A stretch of 64,000 bases of DNA from Gammaproteobacteria bacterium (GCA_040183005.1 JAMPIW010000007.1:983314-1047313); one strand, 5' to 3'; numbered from the stretch's first letter, positions 336 through 17,489 are shown. The notes: a model not told the origin generated them from the sequence alone. Program-made: numbers and translations.

Positions 336-1469
336 TCAGAAGCCCGCGAAGTGCTCTGCCTTCACTTTCTTCGCCACCGCCTGCCCCACCCGCTGCAACT
401 CGGCGATATGCGCCACGGAATCGAGCTTCTGCACGTCTTCCGGTTTGATATCCGCCAGCTCCAGGGCTGACAGTCCCTTCGGGGACAGCTCGGCGTTGTA
501 GCGCATGTAAGTAAAGAGTTTACCCGGCCCCACCGGGCCCTTCGCGCCGATCATGTTACCCACCTCCCGATCAAGCTCATCGCCGGAGAGACATTTGCCA
601 AACACACGGCAGAGCGTGTCCTGCTCGTTGAGCGCCGCGTACATCAGCGCGGAGGGAATAGAGCCTGCGTTGTAGAGCAGATTCATTTCGTTGGGATCGA
701 GGTCGGCATTGGCCTGCGGGCTGGTGCCCGTGCCGATCGACACCACCAGCATCTTGTCTTCACCGGCGGACCAACCCATCTTGTAGGGCTCCACCGTTGC
801 CATCAGGAAGGCCTGGAACGCCGGGTTGTTGTAGGTGGTGATGCCGCCATCGACAAAGACGAACTGGTATTCGTTCTGCGTACCTGGGTCGAAGGTCACA
901 ACCTCGGGTGGAAAATACACCGGTGCCGCCGTGCTTGCGCGCACCAACTGCCACAGCGGCAACTTGAGGTTGCAATCCTTCCGTTCCGGCTGGTTGTATT
1001 TAGCGTACGGATTGTTCGAAACCGGCCAGGGCGAGTCGGTGGTGGCGTTGCGCATCACCATCATCAGCACCGTCTTCAGCTTGTCGCTGCCCAGGGCCGT
1101 GTCCTTGCCGAATACCTCCTGCATTTTCGTCGCCAGCTTATCGTCTTCGAATTTGTAACGGAAGCGTTTGAGCAGGGATGCCTTGTCGAACATGTCGGTG
1201 CCGCTGCTGATGTAGAACGAGCGGATATCGGACACCTTCATGCCGAGCGAGATGCACGCCGCGATGATGGCGCCGGTGCTGGTGCCCGCGACAAAATCGA
1301 AATAATCGGCCAACACAAAATCGTCGCCGCGCCCCAGCTTCTGGCGCAGCATGTTTTCAATTTCGGCCAGCACTTCCACCGTCATCATCCCGCGTATGCC
1401 GCCGCCGTCGAGGGCGAGGATTTTCTTGGGGCCGGGGGTTTGGATGCGTTTTTTCAGTTGCTCGTTCAT
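336..1469 (-). CDS. Patatin-like phospholipase
   Basis: ALDGGGIRG oxyanion motif, GTSTG nucleophile elbow and DGG catalytic Asp are all intact; 377 aa. Confidence 0.93.
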   Translation of the reverse strand: MNEQLKKRIQTPGPKKILALDGGGIRGMMTVEVLAEIENMLRQKLGRGDDFVLADYFDFVAGTSTGAIIAACISLGMKVSDIRSFYISSGTDMFDKASLLKRFRYKFEDDKLATKMQEVFGKDTALGSDKLKTVLMMVMRNATTDSPWPVSNNPYAKYNQPERKDCNLKLPLWQLVRASTAAPVYFPPEVVTFDPGTQNEYQFVFVDGGITTYNNPAFQAFLMATVEPYKMGWSAGEDKMLVVSIGTGTSPQANADLDPNEMNLLYNAGSIPSALMYAALNEQDTLCRVFGKCLSGDELDREVGNMIGAKGPVGPGKLFTYMRYNAELSPKGLSALELADIKPEDVQKLDSVAHIAELQRVGQAVAKKVKAEHFAGF

Positions 1470-1703
1470 GGTGTTTTCCTTAAGTGTTGTCAGTTTTCTT
1501 CTGGTGAGCGGAAAGGCTGTTTAGCTCACCCCATTTGCGGTCTTGCTGGTTTGCTGCGGAACTGGCTTGTCCGGCGGAATCGGCAGGCCGGGGCACTGCT
1601 CGATGTAATTGATATCCGGAGACACCCACTCGCGCCATTCCTTCTGGCTCATGTTACGGGTGAGTTTCTTGCAAAGTTCGTCGGGCCATATCTTGGGGGC
1701 GGG

Positions 1704-3434
1704 CCACAGCCGCAGGGTCTTGTCATAGCTGCCCGAGACGATGCGCGTGCCGTCGGGGCTGAAGGCCACTCTCGACACGAGGCCCTGATGCCCCTGCAGC
1801 GGAGCGCCGATAGGCTGGCCGGTTTGCGCGTCCCACAGCCGCAGGGTCTTGTCCCCACTGCCCGAGACGATGCGTGTGCCGTCGGGGCTGAAGGCGACGC
1901 TCGACACGTAGTCCTGATGCCCCTGCAGCGGCGCGCCGATGGGCGACCCGGTTTTCGCGTACCACAGGCGCAGGGTCTTGTCCCCACTGCCCGAGACGAT
2001 GCGCGTGCCGTCGGGGCTGAAGGCCACGCTCGTCACCCACTCCTGATGCCCCTGCAGCGGCGCGCCGATGGGCTGGCCGGTTTTCGCGTCCCACAGGCGC
2101 AGGGTCTTGTCCCAACTACCGGAGACGATGCGTGTGCCGTCGGGGCTGAAGGCCACTCTCGACACGAGGCCCTGATGCCCCTGCAGCGGAGCGCCGATAG
2201 GCTGGCCGGTTTGCGCGTCCCACAGCCGCAGGGTCTTGTCCCCACTGCCCGAGACGATGCGCGTGCCGTCGGGGCTGAAGGCCACGCTCCACACCGTGTC
2301 CTGATGCCCCTGCAGCGGCGCGCCGATGGGCTGGCCGGTTTTCGCATCCCACAGGCGCAGGGTCTTGTCTTCACTGCCCGAGACGATGCGCGTGCCGTCG
2401 GGGCTGAAGGCCACGCTCCACACCGTGTCCTGATGCCCCTGCAGCGGCGCGCCGATTTGCTGGCCGGTTTTCGCATCCCACAGGCGCAGGGTCTTATCCC
2501 AACTGCCCGAGACGATGCGCGTGCCGTTGGGGCTGAAGGCCACGCTCGACACTGCGTCCTGATGCCCCTGCAGCGGCGCACCGATCGGCGATCCGGTGTT
2601 CGCGTCCCACAGGCGCAGGGTCTTGTCCCCACTGCCCGAGACGATGCGCGTGCCGTCGGGGCTGAAGGCCACGCTCGTCACCCACTCCTGATGCCCCTGC
2701 AGCGGCGCGCCGATGGGCGACCCGGTTTTCGCGTCCCACAGGCGCAGGGTCTTGTCAAAACTACCGGAGACGATGCGCGTGCCGTCGGGGCTGAAGGCCA
2801 CTCTCGACACGAGGCCCTGATGCCCCTGCAGCGGAGCGCCGATAGGCTGGCCGGTTTTCGCATCCCACAGGCGCAGGGTCTTATCCCGACTGCCCGAGAC
2901 GATGCGCGTGCCGTTGGGGCTGAAGGCCACGCTCGACACCGCGTCCTGATGCCCCTGCAGCGGCGCACCGATGGGCGATCCGGTGTTCGCGTCCCACAGG
3001 CGCAGGGTCTTATCCCGACTGCCCGAGACGATGCGCGTGCCGTTGGGGCTGAAGGCCACGCTCGACACCGCGTCCTGATGCCCCTGCAGCGGCGCACCGA
3101 TGGGCGATCCGGTGTTCGCGTCCCACAGGCGCAGGGTCTTGTCCCCACTGCCCGAGACGATGCGCGTGCCGTCGGGGCTGAAGGCCACGCTCCACACCGT
3201 GTCCTGATGCCCCCGCAGCGGCACGCCGATGGGCGACCCGCTGTTCGCGTCCCACAGGCGCAGGGTCTTTGTCCCCACTGCCCGAGACGATGCGCGTGCC
3301 GTCGGGGCTGAAGGCCACGCTCGACACCGCGTCCTGATGCCCCTGCAGGGGCGCGCCGATCGGCGACCCGGTTTTCGCGTCCCACAGGCGCAGGGTCTTG
3401 TCCCCACTGCCCGAGACGATGCGTGCGCCGTCGG
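1704..3434 (-). repeat. Near-identical 129-bp (43-aa) WD40 tandem repeat array
   Basis: Unit [43 protein letters not shown], about 13.4 copies here; the first blade begins at 5091-5140 on the other side of the IS. Confidence 0.95.
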
Positions 3435-3470
3435 TAGTTGTCAAGCTAGTTGTCGCCTGAATGCTTGAAT

Positions 3471-4550
3471 TTATGCTGCCTTTTTGAGTTCTAAATTTTC
3501 CTCCTTTGGATCGGTTTTTTCGGCGACTTGTTGATCGGGATTCAAGTGAACTACGCGGACTGGCCGCCAGTTTCGAGTAACGCCACTCCAACGCTCTGGA
3601 TGCCTTTTCTTCGCTGCTTCATAGACGTCGACGCGCTTCTGTAGCAACGCGGTGTCCAGGCCCGCATGGCGCTCTGCGGGGGTAACGAATCTGATGGCAC
3701 TGTGACGATGTTCATGGTTGTACCAATGAACAAATGTGCTGACCCACTGCCTGGCGGCAATGAGACTTTCAAACGGTCGGAAGGGATAGACTGGCCGGTA
3801 TTTCAACGTCTTGAATAGCGACTCCGAAAAAGGATTGTCATTGCTGACCGCCGGGCGACTGAACGATGGCATCACGCCCAGCGCTTGCAGGGTGGCCAGC
3901 ATCGTGGCGCCTTTCATCGGGCTGCCATTGTCAGAATGCAACACCACCTGATTCAGTGCGATGTTTTCCCGCTTGCAAATATCGCGCATAACTTCGCTTG
4001 CCAGGTCACTACTTTCTGCATCATAGATCTGCCAGCCAACGATTTTTCGGCTAAAAATATCCATGAACAAATACAGGTAAAAATAGATTCCCTTCACCTG
4101 CGTTGGCAGATAAGTGATGTCCCAGCTAAATAACGCATTGGGCGCCGTTGCACAGAGCGCACGCGGCTTGTGGCGCTGTTGCGCGGGTCGTTCTGCGCCA
4201 CGATGCCTGAGCTGATGTGCTTCTCTCAGAGCGCGGTAAATGGTTGACTCAGAAGCGATATATTGCCCACGGTCGGCCAGCCGAGGAACGATTTGACCTG
4301 GCGGAAGATCCCCAAATTCGTCTGAATTCACGACTGCCAGCAGGCGCTCGCGTTCCGGCACACTGAGCTTGTTTTTGGGTGCCTGCAACCGCATGGGTCG
4401 CTGATCGCCGCGTAATGGGTCGAGCTGCCAGCGTTGCAAAGTGCGTTCGCTGAGAGAGATCGCCGCACAGGCGCGATCCTGGTGCGCACCCGCAGCGATT
4501 GCTTCCGCCACCAGTGTCATGACTTGGCCGCGCTCTGCGAGGGAGGTCAT
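3471..4550 (-). CDS. IS3-family transposase OrfB (DDE/rve core)
   Basis: [22 protein letters not shown] and WYNxEHRHSAI motifs; overlaps the orfA stop (ATGA). Confidence 0.92.
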
Positions 4551-5032
4551 TTGACCTCGTCCTCCCAGAGCGCGCGGAACTTTTTTTGCAGGATCAGCAA
4601 GGCTGCCGCCTCCGCCAATGCCTTCTCTTTGCGCACTAACTCACGCTTGAGTTTCTCATTTTCATCTTTCAATGTCCGAAATTCACGGATGCCTTGCACC
4701 GCTTTCACCTCGGTACAAAAAGCCGTTTTCCAGCTTGCCAGATGATGGGCAAATAAACCTTTTTCACGACACCACGCATGCAAGGTCTCGCCTGACAAGC
4801 CATGGGTTTCATGCAATGCCACCAGCTGCTCCTCCGCGCTCCAGTCCTGGGGCCGTTTCTCTTTTGTCACCGATATACTGAGCTTGCCCATCGATTTCCT
4901 TTTCATCCAATTCTTTAACGTATGGAAACTAACGTTCAGGTCTTCCGCCACCGACCGGATTGTCCGATCTCCACGAGAAAATACCTTGACCAGCGCTTGT
5001 TCTATAAATGCCCCAGAATACGTTATTTTCAT
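4547..5032 (-). CDS. IS3-family transposase OrfA (HTH)
   Basis: HTH-like N-terminus; A7G slippery motif (minus strand, about 4580-4587) near the 3' end, typical of -1 programmed frameshifting in the IS3 family. Confidence 0.88.
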   Translation of the reverse strand: MKITYSGAFIEQALVKVFSRGDRTIRSVAEDLNVSFHTLKNWMKRKSMGKLSISVTKEKRPQDWSAEEQLVALHETHGLSGETLHAWCREKGLFAHHLASWKTAFCTEVKAVQGIREFRTLKDENEKLKRELVRKEKALAEAAALLILQKKFRALWEDEVK

Positions 5033-6172
5033 CGTTGCCTCTATTTTAGAAAATTAAAATTTAGAGGCGACAACTAGCCTGACACAGGGGGCCGTCGGGG
5101 CTGACGGCGACTGCTAAGACTCGAGAATCCGCATCAATGACCTTCAACAAATGTGAGTGGCCAAATAGTGAGACACCTATTGTATTCTCGATCTCGCTAT
5201 GCGGCGCAATCCGGTGTGCTGCAAGCAGTTTCAACAATCCGAGCACCGTGCCACCTGGGCGTGCGCCCGACAGCATGGCTTGCGCTTCAGCATTAAGCTG
5301 CAGCGCTGTTGCCTGCTTGGATTCCTGATCCGCTTTCCAGGCGAGCCACACAGCCAGGAATGCAACCGCGATAGCCGCGAAAAGCAGGTATCTTAATAGT
5401 TTGCGGCTTTTTTTAAGCCTCGCGGCATCGGCCTGTGCCTGCTCAGTGGCACGCTTCTGTTCGGCCGTGAGTGCTTCTGCGGCAGCCTGCTTCTCCCGTG
5501 CGGCATCGAGTTCCGCCTGACGCCGGCGTTCTTCTTCCACCTGCTTTTGTGTCTCTCTCTGGCGCGAAGCCAACATGAACTCGCTGACGGGTTCAAGTCG
5601 TCTACGATAGGCAGGTCTGGCGGCGAGCGCCTCGGCGATGGCCAGCCGTTCACCCACCATCAGCCAGGGGTCCTTGCGGCCGTTCTTCTCCCAGTCTTGC
5701 GCAGCCTGTTCAACTGCATCGGCGACCTTCAGGTCTTCGCGCTCGGCGTGCAGCCAGTTGGCGAGTACGTCCCAGCGGCGCAACAGCGCTTCATGGGCTA
5801 CCTCGACGATTTTCTCGCCTTCGCGCTGGTCGGTGAGCAGCAGTCGTTTATCCGCCAGGGCATCAATGAGCTTATGGCTCTCGGGTGGTAGATCGGACAG
5901 CCGCGCTGTGCGGCGCATGGGCTCGTCGTTTTGCGGATTGATCGTGGCGAGCCAGGGAATGAAGGCGGCCCGCAGAGTTTCCAGTTGGGTCTGACGCTCG
6001 GCCGGGTCGCGGGCGAGCACGGACTCCGCTTCATCGTTCACCACGCTGCGCATGCCGCCCATGACGTCGTATTCGTCGAGGCGCAGGTCGCCGTCGCGTA
6101 AGCGTCCAGCCGTCCCACCTGTTTTTATAGTTACCCTTGCGCCACCCTGTGGTTTTCACAGGAGAGCGGCAC

Positions 6173-6490
6173 ATGAATATGAAATCGTTGGAGGCAAGTC
6201 GCCACTACTGGCAGCAGCACGTCGCGGCCTGGCGGTGTAGTGGCCTGAAGCAGATTGATTATTGCAGGCAGCATGGACTGGTGCCGAAGCAGCTTCGCTA
6301 CCGGATCGCCAAAGACCGTCGAAACGACGTTTGCGTGAGCGGCACGGATGCGGTCACGCTGGTGCCCGTGCAGATCGAGGAGGTCAACGGTGCTGGGTTG
6401 GTGTTGCAGAACGCGGGGGGGTGGCAGCTCACGCTGCCGTCCGGTGTTTCGGCAAGCTGGCTGGCAACCTTGCTGCGGGGCTTGTCATGA
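6173..6490 (+). CDS. tnpA: IS66 accessory protein TnpA
   Basis: WQQHVAAWRCSGLKQIDYCRQHGL HTH pattern; RBS GGAGAG before ATG 6173. Confidence 0.85.
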   Translation: MNMKSLEASRHYWQQHVAAWRCSGLKQIDYCRQHGLVPKQLRYRIAKDRRNDVCVSGTDAVTLVPVQIEEVNGAGLVLQNAGGWQLTLPSGVSASWLATLLRGLS

Positions 6491-6828
6491 TTGCGCAGCC
6501 GCATACGATCTGGGTGGCGGTCGCGCCGATGGACATGCGGGTGGGCATCGATGGTCTGTCGCTGCGGGTGCAGCAGGCGCTGGGCAAGGCCCCCTGCGAT
6601 GGCTCGGCCTATGTGTTTCGTAACCGTCGCGGTGATCGGCTCAAGGTGTTGCTGTGGGATGGCAATGGCGTGTGGTTGTGCCAGCGCCGGTTGCATCGGG
6701 GGCGCTTCGTCTGGCCGCAGGCGGACAGTCCGGTCTGGTCATTGGAACTTGCCCAATGGCAGTGGCTGATTGCTGGTGTCGACTGGCAGCGGATGTCGGC
6801 CCAACCGGCGGCCGACTGGCGTTTGTGA
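6487..6828 (+). CDS. tnpB: IS66 accessory protein TnpB
   Basis: PMDMRVGIDGL, YVFRNRRGDRLKVLLWDGNGVWLCQRRL motifs; ATGA overlap with tnpA. Confidence 0.92.
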   Translation: MIAQPHTIWVAVAPMDMRVGIDGLSLRVQQALGKAPCDGSAYVFRNRRGDRLKVLLWDGNGVWLCQRRLHRGRFVWPQADSPVWSLELAQWQWLIAGVDWQRMSAQPAADWRL

Positions 6829-6910
6829 CGATTGAAGCCGCCATGAAAAATGGTGAATAAAAACCTGTATTTATGCGGCTTTCTGCGGTGTTTCATGGTA
6901 TAATTTTGTC

Positions 6911-8536
6911 ATGAAAAACGTTGCCGAAGCAGCCCTGCAAGACGCTCCTGCCGCTCTCAAAAACTGGGCTGTGCTGGCGATGCAGCAGCTCGACGAAAAG
7001 AGTAACAAAGTACAACAGTTAAGCGATCAACTGTCACTGCGCGACCAGCAGCTCAAACACGCCGACCTCAAAATCCAGGCCCTGACCTTCGAACTCGCCT
7101 ACTACAAGCGCATTCGCTTTGCCAACAAGAGCGAACAATTCTCCTTGGAGCAGCGCGAGTTGTTCGAGGAAAGCTGGAATACCGACACCAGTGCGCTGGA
7201 AGCCGAAGTGGAACAGCTGGCATCTACCCAGCAACCCAAGCGCGAACGCGCCGGTCGCCAGCCGTTGCCGAATCATCTCGGCAACCGCTCCATGCGTTGC
7301 TCTACCTCCTGCATCCATGCAGTCGTCCCGCGCATCGAGCATCGCCACGAACCTGAGGGTTGCACCTGCGGCCAGTGCGGCAAGGATCTGGTCAAGATCG
7401 GCGAAGACATCAGCGAGCAACTGGATGTCGAGCCCGCCCGCTTCTTCGTGCATCGCCACATTCGTCCGCAGTATGCTTGCCGTGCTTGTGAGACCGTCAG
7501 TGCGGCGCCGATTCCGCCGGCGGTCATCGACGGCGGCATGGCGGCGCCGGGCTTGCTCACCTGGGTGATGGTCAGCAAATTCATGGATCACCTGCCTCTC
7601 TACCGGCTGGAGCAGATCGCCGCGCGCAGCGGGGTCGTCCTGTCACGCTCCACCTTGGCCGAATGGGTAGGTCGCATTGGCGTGGCACTCCAGCCGCTGG
7701 CCGACCGGCTGGCCGAGATACTTCGCCAGCGCACCGTCCTGCACGCCGACGAGACCCCGGTGCAGCAACTCGACCCCGGACGGGGAAAAACGCTACGCGC
7801 CTTCCTCTGGGCCTACCGAAGTTGCGATCTCGAACAGGGAGACCCCCTCGTCCTCTTCGACTACCAGACCGACCGGCGCGGCAAACATGCCAGGAACTTC
7901 CTGCAAGGCTGGAAGGGTGCCCTTATGGTCGATGATTATGCCTGCTACAAAGGCCTGTTCGCCCGCGCCGTGGTGGAACTGGCGTGCCTGGCCCATGCGC
8001 GGCGGAAATTCTACGATCTGCATGCCGCCCATCAGAGCCCGATTGCGGCCGAGGCATTGAAGCGCATTGCCGGACTCTACGCCATCGAAGATCAGGGCAA
8101 GACCCTGGGCATCGAAGATCGTCATGCATTACGCCAGCAACACGCCAAGCCGAAGCTGGACGAATTCCACGCCTGGCTCCAGAACACACGGCTCACCACC
8201 GCCACGGGTAGCGGCACCGCCAAGGCCATCGACTACAGCCTCAAACGCTGGGATGCAATCAAGCGCTACCTCGGGGATGGCCGTTACCCCATCGATAACA
8301 ACCCGGTGGAAAATGCTATCCGTCCTATTGCGCTTGGTAAAAAGAATTGGCTGTTCACCGGCAGTGAACGCGCGGGCCGCCGCGCCGCCGCCATCCAGAG
8401 CCTGTTCGCAACGGCGAAACTCAACGGCATCGAGCCGGCTGCCTGGCTGAAGGATACGCTGGAGAAACTGCCGACCTGGCCTAACAGCCGCATTGATGAG
8501 CTGTTGCCGTTGCGGTCTGTGCAGGCATCAGGCTGA
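6911..8536 (+). CDS. tnpC: IS66 transposase TnpC, with a 16-aa in-frame insertion
   Basis: CTCGQC...CRAC zinc ribbon, LHADETP, MVDDY, CLAHARRKF, IDNNPVENAIR motifs. Confidence 0.95.
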   Translation: MKNVAEAALQDAPAALKNWAVLAMQQLDEKSNKVQQLSDQLSLRDQQLKHADLKIQALTFELAYYKRIRFANKSEQFSLEQRELFEESWNTDTSALEAEVEQLASTQQPKRERAGRQPLPNHLGNRSMRCSTSCIHAVVPRIEHRHEPEGCTCGQCGKDLVKIGEDISEQLDVEPARFFVHRHIRPQYACRACETVSAAPIPPAVIDGGMAAPGLLTWVMVSKFMDHLPLYRLEQIAARSGVVLSRSTLAEWVGRIGVALQPLADRLAEILRQRTVLHADETPVQQLDPGRGKTLRAFLWAYRSCDLEQGDPLVLFDYQTDRRGKHARNFLQGWKGALMVDDYACYKGLFARAVVELACLAHARRKFYDLHAAHQSPIAAEALKRIAGLYAIEDQGKTLGIEDRHALRQQHAKPKLDEFHAWLQNTRLTTATGSGTAKAIDYSLKRWDAIKRYLGDGRYPIDNNPVENAIRPIALGKKNWLFTGSERAGRRAAAIQSLFATAKLNGIEPAAWLKDTLEKLPTWPNSRIDELLPLRSVQASG

Positions 8537-9964
8537 GCTGTATAGATGGGGCGGCTGGACGCTTACGCCGTCGCTGCCGTAATCCCGGTACAGCCGCGCC
8601 AGGGTCAGGGAGAGCAGCGGCAGCGTGTCTGCGCCGTGGGCGCAGTCACTGAGCATGCGTTCTACCAGGTCCGGTTTTACTTCCAGCCGATTGCCCGCCA
8701 CCGTGGCACGGTGTGCCGGGCCGGTGATGATTTCCTTGAACTGCGACGGCGGCATGGGTTTGAGATCGTCGAACACTCGGGCGTTCAACCCGGCCAGTTC
8801 GGGGGCGGTCTGCAAGGGTTCGTAGCGGTCCGAGCGGATGGTGAAGGCAACGATCAGCGACGGCTGATCCGGTCCGACATCGCGCAGGGTCTCGCCGATG
8901 AGGGCCAGGAAGCGACGCGCCTCGTCGGTGGCGTCCGGGTTGAACAGCTCCTCGGCCTGATCGACTGACAGCAGCAGGGTCGGCGGCGGGATGTCCTGGC
9001 CGTTCGCGATCAGCCGGTTATGGGCGGCACGCTGGATATCGGTGAGCAGGCGCGGTAACGAGTTGACCTCTGTCAGCAGGGCCGCCTTGATGGCGCCAAA
9101 AGTCTGACCACTCAGACCCAAGGTGGTGTGTGCCTTGTGGATGGCCATCGCCAAACCATATTCGCCGGTAAGGGGTTGGCGCTCGGGCCGGATCACTTCC
9201 AGCGGCAGGAAATGCCGGTCGTCTCGCTTCAGCCGGGGCAGCAGGCCAGCCCGCAGGAACGAGGACTTGCCGGTGCCGGAGGGGCCGAGAATAACGAACA
9301 GGGTTTCTACTCCGGTGGCACGCATGCCACGCAAGGCGTCCAGGCCACGGACGATCTGGGCATCCCGGCCGAAGAAGATCGCCGCATCGTTTTCCTCCAG
9401 GGCGGACAAGCCGCGATAGGGCGGACGCTGGGGATCGTCTGGCGGTGGCCAGGGAAAATAGCGCGCGTCCAGGCCGGCGTTTTCCAGCCCCATGCGCAAG
9501 CGCGTGAGTCCGTCGGTGAGAAATTCGATCTGCTGCGGCTCTCCTTTGTGGCTGAAAGTAAGCGCCGTCTTTGGGCCACCGCCCACCAGATGGCAGAGCT
9601 GCCATTCCGCGGTCAGCTCGGTGGGCAGTTCGCCGATCTCCACAGGCTTGAGAATGGCGCCGAAGATGCGTTTGTTGAGGCTCTTGGCGAGCAGAAACTC
9701 AGCCAGGCACCACTTGGATTTCGCCCACGCGGGCGTGACGACAAACACCACCGCCTCGCAACGGTCGGCCGCGCGCCGCAACGTCTCCTGCCAGCGCTCG
9801 CCCGCCGCCAGACCGCGCTGGGGATCGATGTCGAGAAAGACGTCATCCCAACCGTTCGCGGCCAGCCACTCCTTGAGTGCAACGGCCTCAAGTTCGTCGA
9901 TGCTGGAGTGGCTTAGGAAGATGCGGGACATGGAGACTCCTTTGCAGTCATCGCTGTTAATTCA

Positions 9965-10017: not shown

Positions 10018-11949
10018 TTAACCATAGACCACGAATCCCCCCGCCGGCACACTGACCCTTACCGCTCTGCCGTTGCGCGGCTCGATGGACGCCATGGCGC
10101 CGATCTGCGCGGGGTTGGTCGAGTAGAGGCAGGTCAGCGCCCCCGGTGCGGCGTGCAGGGCGGCGTCGATGGTCACCCAAGCCGACCGCTCGCTGTCCGC
10201 GTCGGTGTTGATGGCCAGCAGGATCTCCTGGTTGTTGAAGAGGCGCGACCAGGGCACCAGCGAGAGGATTCGGCCTCCGATCATGCGGGGCAGGCCGAAG
10301 GTGCCCGGCTCGCCGCTGTCGGAGATCTCGCGCAGGTACTGGCGGCCGCGCCGCAGGGGGAGAAGATCGCGGCGCAGTGTCGTCACCTCGGCGATGAAGC
10401 GGTAGATCTCGTGGTCTTCGTTAAAGAAGTGGCGGTCAATGCTCTGCAGTGAGCCGAAGTCACCGCCGAACATACACTCACGCAGGAACCGGTCGTTGTC
10501 TCCCGCCCCGTCGAAGCCCTGCTCGGTGCCATAGTAAAGGCAGGGGATGCCCATGGAGGTGAGGTTGAGGCCCAGCACGGCCTTGAGGTGGGCATAACCA
10601 TTGTTGATTTTGTCGCTGCAGAAACGGCCCTTGTTTTCGCCCTTGCGCACCTGGTCGTGATCGTCGAACAGGGTGACGACGTGCTTGCCGAACCAGACGT
10701 GGGAGGATTTGTTCACCAGCGCCGAGTTGCGGAACAGGTTGAAGTAATCGGTGGGCTCGCGCCAGCCCTTGGCCAGGTAGTCCATGCGGTCGGGGATGTC
10801 GTCTATCCCCAGGGCCGCGTCCAGGCCGGTTAGCTCCAGGGTGTTATAGGCATTCTCGCGCCCACCAGTGATCTCGCCCACCAGGAAGAAGTTTTCCTTG
10901 CCCAGGGTCTGGGCGAATTCCTTGATGACTGCAGCGAAGTAGCGCGTCGCGCCCGGTTCCATGTGTTTGACGGTGTCAATGCGAAAGCCGTCGATGTCGG
11001 CCAGGGCGATCCAGAACTTGTAGACATCGCACAGGGTGTCTAGAGCCGGAGTATTGTGGAAGGCGTCTACAATGCGCCTGTTCTGCGCGTCCCGGTCGTG
11101 CTCGCCGTGGTGAACATCCTTCAGGGTGACGAAGTCGCCCTCATAGTATTCGGGATCATAGTCCCAGCTATTGATGCGGCCCTTGGCGGTAAATGTGGCT
11201 GCGTCTTGCAGTTCCGATGGCCACACAGCGTCGTTGGGCCAGGCGTTGCCGTGGGTGGTGGGGTCGATGGCAGTGAAAGGGATATTGGCCTCGCCAAAGG
11301 CGTTGCGCCAGCCCGCCACCGGATAGGGTCTGCCATCCCAGCGCGGATCAATGTAGGTATTCCCCTTATCGTCCTTGGCGGGATAACGGTTCGGATTATT
11401 CTGGTAACCGAACACGTCGCCGGTGTGGTTGAGAATGATGTCCAGGATCACACAGATGCCATGGGCATGGGCCGTGTTCACCAGGTCGATGAGGTCCTGG
11501 CGGGTGCCGAAATGGGGGTCTACATCGAGGAAGTTCTGGATGCCGTAACCGTGGTAGGAGTGCTTGTCTGACTCCACCTGCTTGAACACCGGGCTGATCC
11601 ACAACGTACTCACGCCCATGCGTTGCAGGTAGCCGATCTTGCTCTCCAGTCCTTTCAGTGTGCCGCCCAGCCACTCATCACCGGCATCGGCCCAGGTGGC
11701 CCGATCCGCCTTGTAGGCATCGTCGGGAAAGCGGAACGGGAGCGTGGTACCGCTGGCAACGGGATTGCCGGCAAGGTCGCGATAGTCTTTTTCCCGTCCG
11801 TCGGAAAAACGGTCGAGCATCAGGAAGTAGAGCACCTGATCCTCCCAGGCTGGAGGGGAAGCCCGGTATTTTGGGCGCCGCAGGGTAGTCCAGTTGATGT
11901 CGGTAAGGCTACGTTCCAGTTGCGCGTGGGTGGTGTTGTCGATGTTCAT
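10018..11949 (-). CDS. GH13 alpha-amylase-family glycosidase, cytoplasmic, 643 aa
   Basis: FLMLDRFSDG, GGTLKGL, YHGYG, DIILNH, DGFRIDTVKH (nucleophile), LVGEI (acid/base), DDHD. Start placed at ATG 11949 behind a GGAGG RBS; no signal peptide. Confidence 0.92.
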   Translation of the reverse strand: MNIDNTTHAQLERSLTDINWTTLRRPKYRASPPAWEDQVLYFLMLDRFSDGREKDYRDLAGNPVASGTTLPFRFPDDAYKADRATWADAGDEWLGGTLKGLESKIGYLQRMGVSTLWISPVFKQVESDKHSYHGYGIQNFLDVDPHFGTRQDLIDLVNTAHAHGICVILDIILNHTGDVFGYQNNPNRYPAKDDKGNTYIDPRWDGRPYPVAGWRNAFGEANIPFTAIDPTTHGNAWPNDAVWPSELQDAATFTAKGRINSWDYDPEYYEGDFVTLKDVHHGEHDRDAQNRRIVDAFHNTPALDTLCDVYKFWIALADIDGFRIDTVKHMEPGATRYFAAVIKEFAQTLGKENFFLVGEITGGRENAYNTLELTGLDAALGIDDIPDRMDYLAKGWREPTDYFNLFRNSALVNKSSHVWFGKHVVTLFDDHDQVRKGENKGRFCSDKINNGYAHLKAVLGLNLTSMGIPCLYYGTEQGFDGAGDNDRFLRECMFGGDFGSLQSIDRHFFNEDHEIYRFIAEVTTLRRDLLPLRRGRQYLREISDSGEPGTFGLPRMIGGRILSLVPWSRLFNNQEILLAINTDADSERSAWVTIDAALHAAPGALTCLYSTNPAQIGAMASIEPRNGRAVRVSVPAGGFVVYG

Positions 11950-12002
11950 GATGTAGACCTCCTGTCTGTCTGATTGATCAGGCCGAAATCGGCCCCCTGC
12001 AT

Positions 12003-12206
12003 TTATCCTTCTTGATCCAATGCGGCAAGTTGCTCCTCGAACCAGCCGATCCAGTCCTGATGATTGGGCGGCAGTCGGCTGCTGGCGCAGCAGACTTTCG
12101 AGTTCGGCCAGCACTTCCACCGTCATCATGCCGCGTATGCCGCCGCCGAGGGCGAGGACTTTCTTGGGGCCGGGGCTTGGATGCGGGCTATGAGTTGTTC
12201 GTTCAT
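12003..12206 (-). pseudogene. Deletion scar: 5' end of a second patatin gene fused to the 3' end of a TPR gene
   Basis: 12206-12079 reads MNEQLIARIQAP/GPKKVLAL-GGGIRGMMTVEVLAELE (paralog of 1469-1350, with 1-bp and 3-bp deletions). 12078-12003 reads RLPPNHQDWIGWFEEQLAALDQEG* (paralog of the end of 13515-15473). Confidence 0.88.
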
Positions 12207-12225: not shown

Positions 12226-13395
12226 CTATCGCACCAAGGTCATCGGGCCTGCTTCACCCGTGACAAGATTGCGGTAATTACCCGTCATCTGCCTGCTGTT
12301 GGCGGAAACCTGAAGCCTTGCCTCACCACCGGTGTTGTCAAGGCGGGCATACTCAATCGTCACCACGCCCTGCACGATCGTCCCCGCTCCCTGGGCAATC
12401 AGTAGTTGGTTCCAGTTAAACAATTGGACGTTGACGTTGCTTCCCGACTGCTGAAAAATGTAAATACCATCTGGGCCGCGCCATGAACCGCTGATGTCAA
12501 TAAACGCCGACGCGGGCGATGCCGGAACGGAGGACGCAGGCACTGCAGGCGCCGATATGGGGAGATTTTCCGATGAAGGTTGGGGGTCAACAACCGGCGG
12601 CGCGGACGGATCGGATGTTGTCAGTGTTCCGATAAAGGCGAGGGTCAGGATACCGCCTAAAACCATGCCGCTGATGGCCAGTACCTTCCCTTTTGCGCCG
12701 CCTGCATCGGGGCTGCGCTTCACATCGTAAAACGCAGCGATACCCAGACCCAGCGCAATAAGCGCGAATACCAATGCGCCTATTTTCGTGTCTTGATCAT
12801 CGACACTTAACTCTGAGTACGAGATCATCAGCAGCACACCCAAGACCAGGCTGGCGATGGGCTTCCAACTGGTTTTTTTCGTAACATGCGGAGTCGGTTT
12901 GGGGGGTTCGGGCGGGCGCGGCCCGACCGGCGTCACCCCGGCTTTTTCCAGCACCTTTACCAGTTGCTGCGTATCGAACTCCCAGCGGTTGTCACTTACC
13001 TCTAAAGCCTGCCGCTTGCACAGCCGCTTAAGGTCTTCCGGCAGGCTGCCCTCTTCGGGCATGGTCGCTCCCTCTACAAGCACCGGGACCACCCGGATGT
13101 CGCGCTTGAGGGCTGCGGAAATCTCCATGCGGACAAAATCGTTGGCATCCTCCAACCGGCGATTGCCCTTTTCGTCCACCACCGTGAGCCACTGTTTGCC
13201 GATCACCACAATCAGGACTTTGCACGAAGATACTGCCTTCTCAATGACCCTATCGAACTCAAGGCCTGGCTCGATACTGCCCGAGACGTCCATGAACACT
13301 TGATCCTTGCCAAAATACTGGCTCAGCCAGTCGAAGAGCCTCCCTGCCTCCGACCGTGCATCGCCACGCCTGTAGTTAATGAATACACCCGCCAT
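12226..13395 (-). CDS. TIR domain - three TM helices (DUF4190-like) - C-terminal beta-rich domain
   Basis: VFINYRRGD...AGRLFDWL...FVRMEI TIR; three hydrophobic segments; Pro/Ser linker; beta-strand-rich C-terminus. Confidence 0.85.
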   Translation of the reverse strand: MAGVFINYRRGDARSEAGRLFDWLSQYFGKDQVFMDVSGSIEPGLEFDRVIEKAVSSCKVLIVVIGKQWLTVVDEKGNRRLEDANDFVRMEISAALKRDIRVVPVLVEGATMPEEGSLPEDLKRLCKRQALEVSDNRWEFDTQQLVKVLEKAGVTPVGPRPPEPPKPTPHVTKKTSWKPIASLVLGVLLMISYSELSVDDQDTKIGALVFALIALGLGIAAFYDVKRSPDAGGAKGKVLAISGMVLGGILTLAFIGTLTTSDPSAPPVVDPQPSSENLPISAPAVPASSVPASPASAFIDISGSWRGPDGIYIFQQSGSNVNVQLFNWNQLLIAQGAGTIVQGVVTIEYARLDNTGGEARLQVSANSRQMTGNYRNLVTGEAGPMTLVR

Positions 13396-13514: not shown

Positions 13515-15473
13515 TTAATCGCCATCAAGTTTATGCAATTGTGCCTCGAACCAGCCGATCCAATCCTGATTGGGCGGCAGTTGGCCGCGAGTCTTCAAAC
13601 CTTGCTGAATATCAAGGCCACGCCGCAGATAGCCGCGCCGCTCGTCTGCCGACAGGCCAGCGTGCATACCGAGTTTCCCGCAGGACATGACGATATCGAT
13701 TTGCCACTGCACATTGGCCGCATCGCGCGCGGCCAGCGTTTCGCGGATGTCGAGGCTGTTGCGGTAGGCCGCCAGCGCACCCGCCAGATCGCCCTGCGCC
13801 ACCCGCACGTCGCCAATCTTGTTGTGACTGATCGACAGGTTGCGCTGCCACTCAGTGTTGGCGGCATCGAGTGCGGCCAACGTCTCGCAAATTTCATGGC
13901 TCTTGCGGTAGGCTGCCAGCGCCCCCGCTAGGTCGCCCTGTGCCACCAGCACATCGCCGATGCCGTCGTGACCGACCGCCAGGTCGCGCTGCCACCCGGT
14001 GTTGGCGGCATCGCGCGCGACCAGCGTCTCGCAAATTTCATGGTTCTTGCAGTAGGCTGCCAGCGCCCCCGCCAAGTCGCCCTGCGCCACCCTCACGTCG
14101 CCGATCCTGTTGTGGCTGACCGACAGGTCGCGCTGCCACTCGGTGTTGGCTGGATCGCGCGCGGCCAGCGTCTCGTGGATGTCGAGGCTGTTGCGGTAGG
14201 CCGCCAGCGCACCCGCCAGGCCGCCCTGCGCCACCAGCACATCGCCGATGCCGTCGTGACCGACCGCCAGGTCGCGCTGCCACTGCGTGTTGGCCGCATC
14301 GCGCGCGGCCAGCGCCTCGGCAATAGCGAGGCTGTTGCGGTAGGCCGCCAGCGCCGCCGCCAGGTCGCCCTGCGCCACCAGTACGTCGCCAATTCTGTTG
14401 TGACTCACCGACAGGTCGCGCTGAGCCTCATCATTGTCGGCGTCTGATGCCACACGCTGTTCAGCCACTGACTGTGCAATATCATAGCTGCGTCGGGCCG
14501 CCGCCAAGTCACCCAAGGCCACGTGCAGATCGCCGACATAAAAATGGGTTTCGATGTCCTCGGGATCGTGTTCTGCCGCCCGTTGATAAGCTGCTAACGC
14601 AGCGCGTACATCGTGTGAAAAAGCCAGTGCACCTTGTTCGCGTGCGAGCGCCGCCGCGCGTCGGCGAGCGGCGATTTCATCCTCACCGGTGACTTGTGGT
14701 GATTGGGCTTCTTCGTCTGCGGCGCGTTCTTCGGCGCGCATCAGGGCTTCAGCCGGTTGGGTATCGCCTTCTTGCAACGCCACTGCGGCGGCGATCTGCG
14801 CCGTGCTCGCGTCGGGTTGGGCAGCAGCAGTCAGTGTGCGCGCCACGGCCATTTGCAATTGCGTTTCCAATTCAGTGACGCGATTACTCATCTCAATAAC
14901 GCTGTTACGCAATGTGGTGTTTTCGGTATCTTTGCTATCAAGCTGTCGCGTCAGTGTAGCGATGATCTGCATCACTTCCGGGGAGTTTGGGGAGACCTGG
15001 GATGTGACCCCTTGCAGCTTCTGAATTTCGTTCTGTACCCCGGTGCTCAAGGCCTGAATCAGGTCTTTAATATCGCTGAATTCTGCGGGGCGGGCGTCGC
15101 GCTGTACTTCCTCGCGAAAGGCCTGGACGCAATTGAACAGATGCGAGTGGCCGATATCAGACAGCGCGACATCGGGAATGCTGGTGCGTAGCAAGGCGAT
15201 GTGAGGCTTGCCTTTGCCGCGACGGTACTCCAGATGTGTAATCGAGAGATTGTCCGGGTTGCCGTCGCCGGGCTGAAACCCATAACGGTGGCCCAATATC
15301 AGCACATACAAGTCGCAGCCGTCTATATCCGCCAGGCAACTGTCACGCACTGTCTCGCTGTCTGGACGATAGCTATGCACCGGCTGATGATTCGCCGCCA
15401 CGAGCCAGTCGAACACCGCCTTACGCTCATCCTCCAGGTCCTTCAAGGTGGATGAGACATACACTCTAGCCAT
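13515..15473 (-). CDS. DUF4062 (TIR-like) - helical/coiled-coil - TPR protein, no NTPase
   Basis: VYVSSTLKDLEDER...CDLYVLILGHRYG...SITHLEY; five 48-aa repeats at the C-terminus. Confidence 0.85.
   Translation of the reverse strand: MARVYVSSTLKDLEDERKAVFDWLVAANHQPVHSYRPDSETVRDSCLADIDGCDLYVLILGHRYGFQPGDGNPDNLSITHLEYRRGKGKPHIALLRTSIPDVALSDIGHSHLFNCVQAFREEVQRDARPAEFSDIKDLIQALSTGVQNEIQKLQGVTSQVSPNSPEVMQIIATLTRQLDSKDTENTTLRNSVIEMSNRVTELETQLQMAVARTLTAAAQPDASTAQIAAAVALQEGDTQPAEALMRAEERAADEEAQSPQVTGEDEIAARRRAAALAREQGALAFSHDVRAALAAYQRAAEHDPEDIETHFYVGDLHVALGDLAAARRSYDIAQSVAEQRVASDADNDEAQRDLSVSHNRIGDVLVAQGDLAAALAAYRNSLAIAEALAARDAANTQWQRDLAVGHDGIGDVLVAQGGLAGALAAYRNSLDIHETLAARDPANTEWQRDLSVSHNRIGDVRVAQGDLAGALAAYCKNHEICETLVARDAANTGWQRDLAVGHDGIGDVLVAQGDLAGALAAYRKSHEICETLAALDAANTEWQRNLSISHNKIGDVRVAQGDLAGALAAYRNSLDIRETLAARDAANVQWQIDIVMSCGKLGMHAGLSADERRGYLRRGLDIQQGLKTRGQLPPNQDWIGWFEAQLHKLDGD
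13704..14423 (-). repeat. Five 144-bp (48-aa) TPR-like tandem repeats
   Basis: Unit QRDLxVxHxxIGDVxVAQGDLAGALAAYRxSxxIxETLAARDAANTxW. Confidence 0.9.
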
Positions 15474-15500: not shown

Positions 15501-17489
15501 TCACCAAAGCTTCCGCGTATCCAGCCACGTTACCTGCCCCGTTCGTTCATTCACCTCGTTATACATATGCGCCGTCCCGCCCGGCCCGTCACCCCCTTCA
15601 CCATTCCACAGACAAACGAACCGCACCTTGTCCACACCGCAGGCGAGTGCGGTATAGAGCAGCCAGAGGTTGCAGCGTTCGTAGGGGTAGCCGGGTTCGG
15701 CATGCGGTGGTGGCTCACCCAGTGCATCCGGCGCGGAGCGAATGGGGGCAGCGAGTTTGGCCTTGGCGTCGAGGTAGCGGTTGCGCCAGGTCTCGCCGAC
15801 GCGTACCACAGATTTCTGAATGAAATCGGGTTCGTGAAACGGTTGCAGCCAATGCACTTTTACCCCGCGCTGCTGGCAGGCCTCGGTAAACAACAGATCG
15901 CCACCGCAGGCGCCTTGGGTGAGGGCGAGGTCATCGGGGCCGGCGCCGAGTTGGTCCAGCGCTTCGGCGATTTTCTGCGCGGCAATGGATTCCTTGTCGG
16001 CCGGAAAGCGCGGCGTGGCGCGGTCTGGCGTGTCGATCATGTGGCCGCTGAACAGGAACACTTGGCGCGGCTGCCAGCGCTCCTCGGGTGGGGTGAGTTT
16101 TTGCAGGGCACGGTCGAAGGTGGCGATGCCGGCGTCGACATGCTCCGGGTGAAAGCCGAGGTCCTTGAGCAGTTGCAGTTGCGCGCGGCTGGAGTTGAGC
16201 GCGAACCAGTCCTTGTCGTTTTTGGCGATGGCTTCCTTGTAGGCCTCCTTGACCGTCTCCGGCGTGCCGACCAGCACCTCGAGATCGCCGAGGGCCGCCA
16301 GGGACCAGAAGCGCTGACTGTCGTCCGGCTCGCACTCTGCGGCGAAGCGCACTGCACCGGCCATGGTATACATCTCACTGTCGTAGCGGGTGTCATTGGT
16401 GAGGTGGCGATAGAGATGCATCAGCGTGAGCGCGTTGATGCCGGAGTAGTAATGGCTGGGGTTGCGGCGGTAGCCCTTGGTGTAGCTGTCGATAGCGGCG
16501 CGCAGCAGGGCGTCTTCGTAAGCGGCCTCATCGCGCATCTGCGCCGGGGTCTTGCCGCTCTGGCGCCAAGCGGCGGTCCAGGCGTCCTTGTCGACGCGGC
16601 CCAGCAGCGCCCAGGTTTCCGGGTCAGTGGGGTAGGTGTCTAAAACGTTTCGATAGTGTTCGCGTGCCCTGTCCAACGAATGGCCGGGACAGCCAGCACA
16701 GGCCAGCCGTTGCAGGCAGATGCCCTTCCCCTGCAACCCCTTGAGGTTGCCCGGCTCGATCTCCAGTCCGCGTTCGAGCTGTTCCAGCGCGAAATCAAAG
16801 CGCTCGGCCTTGCGCAAGGCCTCACCCGCCCGGATCCAGGCCTCGGCGCGAAAGGCGGCGACGGGGGCTTCGTCCGCGAGCACCAGTACATCGCCGATAC
16901 GCCCTGCCTTGCGCGCCAACTCGACGCGATCTTGCCAGGCATCGTGCTGCTCCCAGAACTCGCGCACATCGCCAATGCGCAGCGACTTCCAGTCCGGCTC
17001 CTGCAGGTTGGGCAGCAGTTGATACACCGGGCTCACCTTGCGGCCGTGCCAGGATTCCATCGTCGCCTGCACCATCGCAGTAAGCTGGCGCATGTCGCTC
17101 TCCAGTGTTGCCGGGTCTGGCCCGCCGTCCTTGATGTTGTAGCGCAGCTTGCGGTCGGTGTAGAGGTCGAAGGCGGTCGTGACCTGTCCGCCGCACACGA
17201 TGACCACGCCGCGCGCGCGCAACGCATGGCGCACGCCGAGTTCGTACCAGACATTGGGATTGGCGAGTGTGAGGTCAGCCACCACCAGATCGGCGATCAG
17301 TAATTCCTGAAACATGTCGGTGCGAATGTCACCGGCTTGCCGTTCTTCATCCGCACGAAAAACATCCAGCCCGGCCGCCTCAAGCGCAGGCTTGATCAGC
17401 TCGGCATAGACACGATTGAAATCGATATCGCTGCCCTGGCTATCCTTCTTCGTGCCGAAAGGCATGGCGACAAACGCGTGCAGTTTCAC
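15501..17489 (-). CDS. Nucleoside deoxyribohydrolase-like domain - TPR-S (DUF4071/MAP3K TRAF-binding-like) - SLOG-fold domain
   Basis: AFVAMPFG, ADLVVADLTLANPNVWYELGVRHAL; TPR block with ETWALLGRVDKD and YYSGINALTL; C-terminal FSGHMID...TQGACGGD...RCN...GPGGT. Likely GTG start at 17489. Confidence 0.8.
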   Translation of the reverse strand: MKLHAFVAMPFGTKKDSQGSDIDFNRVYAELIKPALEAAGLDVFRADEERQAGDIRTDMFQELLIADLVVADLTLANPNVWYELGVRHALRARGVVIVCGGQVTTAFDLYTDRKLRYNIKDGGPDPATLESDMRQLTAMVQATMESWHGRKVSPVYQLLPNLQEPDWKSLRIGDVREFWEQHDAWQDRVELARKAGRIGDVLVLADEAPVAAFRAEAWIRAGEALRKAERFDFALEQLERGLEIEPGNLKGLQGKGICLQRLACAGCPGHSLDRAREHYRNVLDTYPTDPETWALLGRVDKDAWTAAWRQSGKTPAQMRDEAAYEDALLRAAIDSYTKGYRRNPSHYYSGINALTLMHLYRHLTNDTRYDSEMYTMAGAVRFAAECEPDDSQRFWSLAALGDLEVLVGTPETVKEAYKEAIAKNDKDWFALNSSRAQLQLLKDLGFHPEHVDAGIATFDRALQKLTPPEERWQPRQVFLFSGHMIDTPDRATPRFPADKESIAAQKIAEALDQLGAGPDDLALTQGACGGDLLFTEACQQRGVKVHWLQPFHEPDFIQKSVVRVGETWRNRYLDAKAKLAAPIRSAPDALGEPPPHAEPGYPYERCNLWLLYTALACGVDKVRFVCLWNGEGGDGPGGTAHMYNEVNERTGQVTWLDTRKLW

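What the first reader, a model, noticed from the sequence alone, without database searches (positions are those of the whole stretch)
1521..9931. A 1422-aa TIR-nSTAND1-TM-WD40 receptor hidden under two IS insertions and a frameshift
Seen: removing IS66 plus one target duplication restores RDYGSDG|DLRLDEY; removing the IS3-like element plus one direct repeat restores AVSPDG|ARIVSGS; removing one T at 3268-3270 restores the WD40 frame (455+333+635 codons). The ORF track shows this as unrelated fragments. The predicted TM would put 14 WD40 blades (two propellers) across the membrane from the TIR-NTPase. Three independent lesions in one gene suggest either decay or selection against a toxic receptor. 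The remaining 467-aa ORF still encodes TIR plus NTPase without its sensor.
Basis: partly seen in the sequence, partly recalled or inferred. Interest (0 to 1): 0.7.

Follow-up and report, generated by a model that had tools for sequence, protein, structure and literature searches.

The report
IS-broken TIR-STAND-WD40 receptor gene
This is a dead copy of a widespread bacterial "NLR-like" immune-type receptor gene, cut by two jumping elements and probably one extra base; the break is ordinary decay, but the family's conserved membrane-spanning layout is worth testing in intact relatives.

Summary
On the minus strand, 9931-8567, 6089-5091 and 3426-1521 join into one 1422-aa frame once three things are removed: an IS66 element (6098-8566, 8-bp target duplication), an IS3-family element (3432-5090, 5-bp duplication, not 8) and one extra base at 3268-3270.

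Contigs of a public metagenome run span all four IS junctions. A related contig carries the IS66 site uninterrupted. That run neither confirms nor refutes the single-base frameshift.

The product is a standard member of the known TIR-nSTAND1-WD40 family. At least 576 genomes encode relatives. Of 76 complete copies, 62 have 1200 aa or more, and 67 keep a hydrophobic helix at about residue 640-700.

The family is absent from 11 same-genus or same-family genomes. The gene sits in an island of TIR, NB-ARC, CHAT and caspase genes that shows other damage, in a genome with about 100 repeat copies. Neutral decay is therefore enough; selection against toxicity is not shown.

The 14 WD40 units are about 90% identical, with variation concentrated at seven positions. 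A CapV-like patatin gene lies downstream and recurs beside 11 of 80 homologues, but it is not exclusive to them.

This is a new member of a known kind, of low to moderate interest.

The parts
8567..9931 (-). Gene piece A, codons 1-455. It holds the TIR domain (aa 4-95; WC..E motif with Glu78 at 9695-9718) and the first part of the nSTAND1 NTPase (aa 171-450). Walker A GPSGTGKSS is at 9260-9286 and Walker B LLLSVDQAEE at 8948-8977. As annotated, the ORF runs on into IS66 to 8528 (467 aa).
   Evidence: The AlphaFold model shows TIR plus a P-loop core, and its best PDB fold match is the plant TIR-NLR RPP1.
6098..8566 (+). IS66-family insertion sequence, 2469 bp. TnpB is at 6262-6828 and TnpC at 6911-8536. 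Terminal repeats are GTAAGCG.../...CGCTTAC. The 8-bp target duplication lies at 6090-6097 and 8567-8574.
   Evidence: NF033517, 449 bits against a cutoff of 180. Two other full copies are 99% identical, one with its own 8-bp duplication.
5091..6089 (-). Gene piece B, codons 456-788. It holds the end of the nSTAND1 module (profile 253-378), a charged coiled-coil-like stretch from aa ~630, the hydrophobic helix LLRYLLFAAIAVAFLAVWLAW (5337-5399, aa 686-706), a linker, and the start of WD40 unit 1 (from 5111).
3432..5090 (-). IS3-family insertion sequence, 1659 bp. orfA is at 4547-5032 (HTH_Tnp_1) and orfB at 3471-4550 (rve). The 5-bp target duplication GCCGT lies at 3427-3431 and 5091-5095.
   Evidence: NF033516, 190 bits against a cutoff of 160. 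There are four full copies with different flanks, one of them 100% identical.
1521..3426 (-). Gene piece C, codons 789-1422. It holds the rest of 14 WD40 units of 43 aa (129-nt period, mean 90% nucleotide identity) and a conserved C-terminal tail with two Cys (…ELCKKLTRNMS…QCPGLP…).
3268..3270 (-). One extra base (TTT on the + strand, AAA on the coding strand) in WD40 unit 2. It shifts the frame.
   Evidence: GACAAAGACC against GACAAGACC in the other units. Not confirmed by reads.
336..1469 (-). CapV-like patatin phospholipase gene, 51 nt downstream and co-directional. A recurrent but not exclusive neighbour of this receptor family.

Best explanation
The region is a pseudogene of a canonical TIR-nSTAND1-TM-WD40 protein. 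This is an NLR-like 'conflict system' receptor of a large, known but experimentally untested bacterial family. It was acquired horizontally and is now inactivated by an IS66 insertion in the NTPase module, an IS3-family insertion at the first WD40 unit, and probably a one-base insertion in WD40 unit 2.

The damage is most simply neutral decay of a dispensable gene, in an IS-rich genome and inside an island of similar genes that is also eroding.

Inferred mechanism of the intact protein:
- The N-terminal TIR and P-loop NTPase sit in the cytoplasm.
- A single helix crosses the membrane.
- Two seven-bladed WD40 propellers lie outside. Their variation is concentrated at seven positions per repeat, which I take, from general knowledge of WD40 repeats, to lie on the top face of the propeller and to bind a ligand.
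- Binding would license NTP-dependent oligomerisation, bringing TIR domains together to cleave NAD+ or make a nucleotide signal.
- The downstream CapV-like patatin is a candidate executor.

Shown here: gene structure, lesions, family membership, conservation of the helix, and the repeat variation pattern. Inferred: topology, ligand sensing, TIR chemistry and the link to patatin.
For: - The single 1422-aa frame is restored by removing two elements with proper target duplications plus one base.
- The nSTAND1 profile is split 1-239 / 253-378 by the IS66.
- Intact homologues are 50-73% identical over the first 800 aa, and most are 1390-1460 aa long.
- 576 loci were found in species-representative genomes. 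Of 76 complete copies, 62 have 1200 aa or more and 67 have a hydrophobic helix at aa ~640-700.
- The helix is kept in relatives with TPR, FGE-sulfatase or Peripla_BP_6 C-termini, and is preceded by 3-5 Lys/Arg.
- Invariant residues include C75 and E78, G221-K222-S223, and D324, Q325, E327, E328.
- Run X1 has contigs across all four IS junctions.
- A natural IS66-empty site exists in L115, at 92% nucleotide identity.
- There is no homologue in 4 same-genus and 7 same-family genomes, and only a single copy in the own genome.
- The genome has about 100 repeat intervals, 168 kb in all.
- A neighbouring TIR-NB-ARC-TPR gene is split by a +1 G.
- Repeat analysis: the seven variable positions have pN/pS 2.3, the other 36 have 0.12.
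- Literature: nSTAND1 was named as a conflict-system STAND clade (PMC8195603). TM plus extracellular PBP variants were noted in that family's position (PMC7159879).
Against: - The frameshift is unverified. No exact X1 contig covers 3190-3263.
- Topology rests on Kyte-Doolittle hydropathy and charge bias alone, with no dedicated predictor or experiment. 9 of 76 homologues lack the helix.
- The variable positions were chosen by their variability, so their pN/pS is inflated by selection of sites.
- No member of this family has a tested function.
- The patatin link is weak. It is scattered on the receptor tree (12 changes for 13 cases, no better than shuffles). This patatin subfamily more often follows TPR-S genes (17/65) than WD40 genes (3/65).
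Confidence: 0.8

Rival explanations
1. Adaptive inactivation: the receptor was toxic or autoactive in this host, and the multiple hits reflect selection for its loss.
For: Two or three lesions lie in one 4.3-kb gene. The naive Poisson chance of two or more of about 100 IS copies landing in 4.27 kb of 3.33 Mb is about 0.0075. TIR-STAND proteins are expected to be cell-killing when activated (family knowledge).
Against: One lesion is enough to inactivate the gene, so further hits are what neutral decay predicts. IS survive only in dispensable DNA, so the real per-gene chance is higher than the naive figure. With about 3000 genes, some double hit is expected.
Confidence: 0.12
2. The one-base frameshift at 3268-3270 is an assembly or consensus error inside a near-identical tandem array. 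The gene then carries only the two IS lesions.
For: No contig of X1 reproduces 3190-3263 or the extra base, and a second zone (1695-1759) of the array is also unmatched. The genome looks like a long-read assembly: 9 contigs with all IS copies resolved.
Against: Logan contigs drop minority paths in repeats, so absence is not evidence. Among near-identical repeat copies genome-wide, gaps are about ten times rarer than mismatches (193 against 1994), and three IS66 copies have identical length. This argues against frequent indel errors. The run is only three bases long.
Confidence: 0.3
3. The residual 467-aa ORF (TIR plus a partial NTPase) is a functional, sensor-less product retained for its own activity.
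For: The ORF is open with its native start. TIR Glu78 and Walker A and B are intact. Short TIR-nSTAND1 ORFs (413 and 451 aa) also occur at two other loci.
Against: It ends at profile position 239 of 379 of the NTPase module, followed by 12 IS-encoded residues. The model is disordered from aa ~400. No expression data could be obtained. STAND activation normally needs the complete module to oligomerise (family knowledge).
Confidence: 0.08
4. The hydrophobic segment is a membrane tether or oligomerisation helix, and the WD40 propellers stay in the cytoplasm like the Apaf-1 or Avs sensors.
For: Known bacterial STAND sensors act on cytoplasmic phage proteins (PMC13581612). Some homologues lack the helix (P0042, P0050, P0018).
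Against: A single central membrane-spanning helix must put the two halves on opposite sides. The helix is kept with C-terminal Peripla_BP_6 and FGE-sulfatase domains. The WD40 forms share a C-terminal tail with two conserved Cys. Lys/Arg are enriched on the N-terminal side.
Confidence: 0.25

Closest known systems
TIR-nSTAND1-WD40 proteins (Pfam PF20703 nSTAND1; clade named by Kaur, Iyer, Burroughs and Aravind, eLife 2021, PMC8195603; NCBI name 'nSTAND1 domain-containing NTPase')
   Same: Collinear over the full length. Identity is 50-73% over the first 800 aa, with the same TIR, NTPase, helix, roughly 14 WD40 units and C-terminal tail.
   Different: This copy is interrupted by two IS and probably a frameshift. 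Its WD40 units are unusually uniform (90% nucleotide identity).
Plant TIR-NLRs (RPP1, ROQ1)
   Same: The domain order is TIR, then STAND NTPase, then repeat sensor. RPP1 is the best PDB fold match of the N-terminal model (E 9e-8). The expected logic is ligand-induced oligomerisation activating a TIR NADase.
   Different: The NTPase clade differs (NB-ARC), the sensor is LRR rather than WD40, there is no membrane helix, and the TM-score is low (0.21).
Fungal HET-E / NWD NLRs with highly conserved WD40 repeats
   Same: Near-identical tandem WD40 units with variation confined to a few positions. In the fungal proteins, as I recall, such positions lie on the top face of the propeller.
   Different: The fungal proteins are cytoplasmic, with NACHT NTPase and HET effector. 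No allorecognition role is shown here.
Receptor kinases such as mycobacterial PknD (cytoplasmic enzyme, one TM, extracellular beta-propeller)
   Same: The proposed topology: an N-terminal cytoplasmic catalytic part, a single helix, and a C-terminal propeller outside.
   Different: The catalytic part is a kinase rather than TIR plus NTPase, and the propeller is NHL rather than WD40. This is recalled knowledge, not tested here.
CapV, the cGAMP-activated patatin phospholipase of CBASS (for the downstream gene)
   Same: CapV is the best NCBIfam match of the patatin gene. PADLOC phospholipase-effector models also match.
   Different: The score is 126 bits against a cutoff of 200, so it is not an equivalog. 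No cyclase is present. Its partners here are TIR, TPR-S or NLR genes.

Membership tests
nSTAND1 NTPase family (PF20703) | Match to the family profile above the curated threshold | tested here: met
   Scores are 160 bits (profile 1-239) and 82 bits (profile 253-378) against a cutoff of 27.1. The two halves lie on either side of the IS66.
nSTAND1 NTPase family (PF20703) | Intact P-loop motifs (Walker A GxxxxGK[ST]; Walker B hhhhD followed by acidic residues) | tested here: met
   GPSGTGKSS and LLLSVDQAEE are present. G221, K222, S223, D324, Q325, E327 and E328 are invariant in 10 aligned members.
nSTAND1 NTPase family (PF20703) | N-terminal effector domain and C-terminal repeat sensor in one chain, collinear with full-length members | tested here: met
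   TIR_2 scores 51 bits (cutoff 28) and WD40 525 bits. The reconstructed 1422 aa compare with typical members of 1390-1460 aa.
nSTAND1 NTPase family (PF20703) | NTP-dependent oligomerisation and effector activation | not testable with these tools
   This needs biochemistry on an intact homologue.
TIR NADase-type domains | Conserved catalytic glutamate in the WC..E helix | tested here: met
   The motif is SKWCLAEF, and C75 and E78 are invariant. Assigning it as catalytic rests on knowledge of plant and bacterial TIRs.
IS66 family | TnpB plus TnpC (DDE_Tnp_IS66), GTAAGCG-type terminal repeats and an 8-bp target duplication | tested here: met
IS3 family | orfA (HTH) and orfB (rve) transposase, a short (3-5 bp) target duplication and multiple copies | tested here: met
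   NF033516 scores 190 bits (cutoff 160). The 5-bp duplication is seen in 3 of 4 copies, with 4 of 5 bases matching in the fourth. The outermost bases of the two ends do not pair.
Single-pass membrane receptor with extracytoplasmic sensor | One membrane-spanning helix with the C-terminal domain outside | tested here: inconclusive
   Hydropathy is 2.29 over 19 aa. The helix is conserved in 67 of 76 homologues, with Lys/Arg upstream, and some relatives carry PBP or FGE-sulfatase C-termini. There is no topology experiment or dedicated predictor.
Anti-phage defence system | Protection against phage when expressed | not tested
   PADLOC has only weak ThsB-like TIR hits (26 bits). No member of the family has been assayed, to my knowledge.
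CBASS CapV phospholipase (downstream gene) | Equivalog-level match and an adjacent CD-NTase | tested here: not met
   The score is 126 bits against a cutoff of 200. No cyclase gene is seen among the neighbours.

The most novel reading that the evidence does not exclude
The family, of which this is a dead copy, is a transmembrane NLR. A hypervariable, recombining WD40 double propeller outside the cell membrane senses an envelope or extracellular ligand (for example a phage part or a neighbour's surface). It signals through a STAND NTPase to a cytoplasmic TIR, whose nucleotide product can switch on a CapV-like patatin. This would be a bacterial hybrid of Toll-like-receptor topology and NLR mechanism.
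Probability: 0.3. Interest if true: 0.6.

Novelty: new member of a known kind. Interest (0 to 1): 0.3.

Why it matters
For this genome, the region should be annotated as one pseudogene rather than three unrelated ORFs. It also documents active IS66 and IS3 elements eroding an immune-type island.

More broadly, the survey made here shows that the TIR-nSTAND1-WD40 family is large: at least 576 species. It nearly always carries a central membrane helix, including in relatives with periplasmic-type C-terminal domains. That makes the question of whether bacterial NLR-like proteins can sense outside the cytoplasm directly testable on intact homologues from culturable Pseudomonas, Arthrobacter or Rhodococcus.

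Tried and rejected
- IS-empty alleles: none among the contigs of run X1. Contigs cannot show absence of rare alleles.
- Read check of the frameshift: four read-laying runs gave no exact contig over 3190-3263. A run search with that stretch found nothing. An exact-pattern scan of metagenome contigs, allowing either form, found nothing.
- Orthologue in relatives: none in 40 related genomes. No paralogue in the own genome.
- Solved structures by sequence: no hit.
- Patatin as a dedicated partner of the receptor: rejected as exclusive. The association is scattered on the receptor tree, and the patatin subfamily mostly sits beside other genes.
- The small 327-aa TIR gene after the patatin as part of a conserved receptor-patatin-TIR trio: not found at other receptor loci.
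- Common target preference behind the similar duplications of the two IS (GCGACGGC and CCGACGGC): rejected. The IS3 duplication is only 5 bp, and other copies sit in unrelated targets.
Full report
**What is in the sequence**

The gene lies on the minus strand. ORF listing and translation give three pieces:
- 9931-8567: TIR plus the first part of a P-loop NTPase.
- 6089-5091: the rest of the NTPase, a charged helical stretch, one strongly hydrophobic segment, and the start of a WD40 array.
- 3426-1521: the rest of the WD40 array and a C-terminal tail.

Pfam places TIR_2 at aa 4-95. It places nSTAND1 profile positions 1-239 in the first piece and 253-378 in the second, so one domain is cut in two.

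**The two insertions**

Between pieces 1 and 2 lies a 2469-bp IS66 element (6098-8566). It carries TnpB and TnpC genes, GTAAGCG-type ends and an exact 8-bp target duplication.

Between pieces 2 and 3 lies an IS3-family element with orfA and orfB. The genome holds four full copies of it with different flanks, and all begin CGG-TAGTTG. The element is therefore 3432-5090 and its duplication is 5 bp (GCCGT). The restored junction is unchanged.

**The extra base**

At 3268-3270 the coding strand reads GACAAAGACC, where every other unit reads GACAAGACC. Removing both elements, one duplicate each and one base gives a single 1422-aa frame.

**Are the lesions real?**

One public run (X1, a biofilter metagenome held as Logan contigs) carries this organism at a depth of about 170-200.
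- Its contigs cross all four IS junctions: 8539-8620, 5179-6125, 5064-5151 and 3396-3460.
- No contig skips an element, but contigs cannot exclude rare empty alleles.
- A metagenome contig from a relative (L115) reads ...TACGGCAGCGACGGCGACCTGCGT... straight through the IS66 site, at 92% identity to the upstream flank. The pre-insertion sequence therefore exists in nature exactly as reconstructed.

The frameshift is different. No X1 contig matches 3190-3263 exactly, and all contigs laid over the site derive from other repeat units. A second zone (1695-1759) is also unmatched.
- Contig building drops minority paths in repeats, so this neither confirms nor refutes the extra base.
- Genome-wide, near-identical repeat copies differ by ten times more substitutions than gaps, and IS66 copies have identical lengths. 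This argues against an indel-ridden assembly.
- I put the frameshift at roughly 65-70% real.

**What the gene is**

The reconstructed protein finds hundreds of intact homologues, 50-73% identical over the first 800 residues. Most are 1390-1460 aa with TIR_2, nSTAND1 and WD40 domains. Sources name them 'nSTAND1 domain-containing NTPase' or 'TIR domain-containing protein'.

They are mainly in Actinomycetota (Nocardia, Rhodococcus, Mycobacterium, Arthrobacter) and Pseudomonadota. Of 76 complete copies among the best 80, 62 have 1200 aa or more.

In a 10-sequence alignment the TIR C75 and E78, the Walker A G-K-S, and the Walker B residues D324, Q325, E327 and E328 are invariant.

An AlphaFold model of the first 467 aa (mean pLDDT 73) shows a TIR fold, a disordered linker and a P-loop core. 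Its best PDB fold match is the plant TIR-NLR RPP1, followed by ORC/Cdc6-type ATPases. No solved structure matches by sequence.

The clade was named nSTAND1 and assigned to counter-invader conflict systems by Kaur et al. (PMC8195603). WD40 and FGE-sulfatase sensors on bacterial STANDs are described in PMC13581612 and PMC10907252. The kind is therefore known, and this copy is a broken member.

**The membrane helix**

LLRYLLFAAIAVAFLAVWLAW (aa 686-706) has a 19-residue hydropathy of 2.29 and follows ...RLKKSRK.
- A comparable segment lies at aa ~640-700 in 67 of 76 complete homologues.
- It is present in relatives whose C-terminal part is TPR, FGE-sulfatase or a Peripla_BP_6 solute-binding fold.
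- Lys/Arg are enriched on the N-terminal side.
- The WD40 forms share a C-terminal tail with two conserved cysteines.
- Kaur et al. (PMC7159879) had noted TM helices followed by an extracellular PBP domain at this position of related proteins.

A single central helix must separate the two halves, and the TIR and NTPase need cytoplasmic NAD+ and NTP. The sensor is therefore most likely outside. This is inference from hydropathy, not a demonstrated topology.

**The WD40 array**

There are 14 units of 43 aa with a 129-nt period and mean pairwise nucleotide identity of 90%.
- Amino-acid variation is concentrated at seven positions: the residue before Asp in GSxD, three in the DAxTGxP turn, and four after GHQ. 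From general knowledge of WD40 repeats I take these to be top-face hotspot positions; I did not map them onto a structure here.
- At those seven positions pN/pS is 2.3, against 0.12 elsewhere. The sites were chosen by their variability, so the ratio is inflated.
- Blocks of units recur (for example the ...GLVSR, ...EWVTS and ...DTVWS endings), as expected from unequal recombination.
- This is the pattern known from fungal HET-E/NWD receptors.

**Context**

The gene has no paralogue in its genome and no homologue in four same-genus and seven same-family genomes. It is therefore an acquired accessory gene.

Upstream lie a GH13 amylase and then a run of TIR-TM, DUF4062-TPR, TPR-S, TIR-NB-ARC-TPR, lipase-CHAT, caspase and TIR-NB-ARC-TPR genes. 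One of these (18670-20592 plus 17742-18656) is itself split by a +1 G inside a TPR repeat.

The genome carries about 100 repeat intervals of 700 bp or more at 95% identity or more, 168 kb in total. On a uniform model the chance of two hits in this 4.27-kb gene is about 0.0075. However, IS persist only in dispensable DNA, and the genome has thousands of genes. A double hit somewhere, in a long dispensable gene, is therefore unremarkable. I see no need for selection against toxicity, and I cannot exclude it.

**The patatin neighbour**

The gene 51 nt downstream is a patatin. Its best NCBIfam match is the CBASS cGAMP-activated phospholipase, below the family cutoff, and it matches PADLOC phospholipase-effector models.

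- A homologue (35-60% identity) lies immediately downstream and co-directional, or divergently upstream, of the receptor gene in 11 of 80 loci from both phyla. It does so again in L032/L033, at 56% identity.
- The association is scattered over the receptor tree and no more clustered than shuffled labels.
- In the reverse test, on 80 loci of this patatin subfamily, the commonest upstream neighbour is a TPR-S protein (17/65). WD40 is rare (3/65). TIR genes are the commonest downstream neighbour (9/61).

The patatin is therefore a mobile module of such islands that often keeps company with TIR-bearing genes. A TIR-signal-activated lipase is a reasonable hypothesis, but not a demonstrated partner of this receptor.

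**Verdict**

The architectural reading is supported and the 'toxic receptor' reading is not needed. This is an IS-disrupted member of a known family. The feature worth following is family-wide rather than local: the conserved membrane helix between the NTPase and the sensor.

Noticed in passing
window 17742-20592 (-): A TIR/DUF4062-NB-ARC-TPR gene appears split into two ORFs (640 and 304 aa) by one extra G in a TPR repeat near 18690: AACAAGCCTGGCC where the later repeats imply AACAACCTGGCC. This is a second frameshift inside a tandem-repeat array of the same island.
   Followed up: partly
L115 (JGI contig Ga0073916_1000269), 1-3916: In a close relative, the same TIR-nSTAND1 5' part (93% aa identity) continues after the NTPase module into PAS-GGDEF-EAL domains instead of helix plus WD40. 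An apparent frame change lies near its nt 280-320. The same patatin (87%) and small TIR gene (93%) follow.
   Followed up: partly
window 10018-12129 (-) and protein P0018 (loci L028-L030): P0018, from a Methylococcaceae MAG, is 72% identical in its TIR-nSTAND1 part. It ends in a fragment 69% identical to residues 64-217 of the GH13 amylase that lies directly upstream of the receptor gene here. The amylase-receptor neighbourhood therefore recurs, there as a truncated fusion next to a transposase.
   Followed up: partly
window 10018-30361: This is a dense island of conflict-system genes: TIR with TM segments (12226-13395), DUF4062-TPR (13515-15473), TPR-S (15501-17540), a lipase-CHAT-TPR-S giant (20803-26469), a caspase (26556-27401) and TIR-NB-ARC-TPR (27398-30361).
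   Followed up: partly
genome C9:981609-983645 (window -1704 to 332, minus strand): Two further TIR-type genes follow the patatin in the same direction. One is 327 aa, with a TIR, a hydrophobic segment and a C-terminal domain, and starts 3 nt after the patatin stop. The other is 342 aa.
   Followed up: partly
loci L115-L194 (patatin subfamily): Patatins 63-87% identical to the window's are most often preceded by a TPR-S / MAP3K_TRAF_bd protein of about 660 aa (17 of 65). They are often followed by a TIR gene (9 of 61). A few are followed by lipase-CHAT or caspase genes.
   Followed up: partly
whole genome (G000): About 100 repeat intervals of 700 bp or more at 95% identity or more (168 kb, 5% of 3.33 Mb). 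They include an abundant family of about 1340 bp and nested IS at C6:177-182 kb. One IS66 copy (C4:164272-166740) has no target duplication, suggesting recombination between copies.
   Followed up: no
window 1695-1759 and 3190-3263: These are the only two stretches of the WD40 array with no exactly matching contig in run X1, although the organism's depth there is about 170-200.
   Followed up: partly
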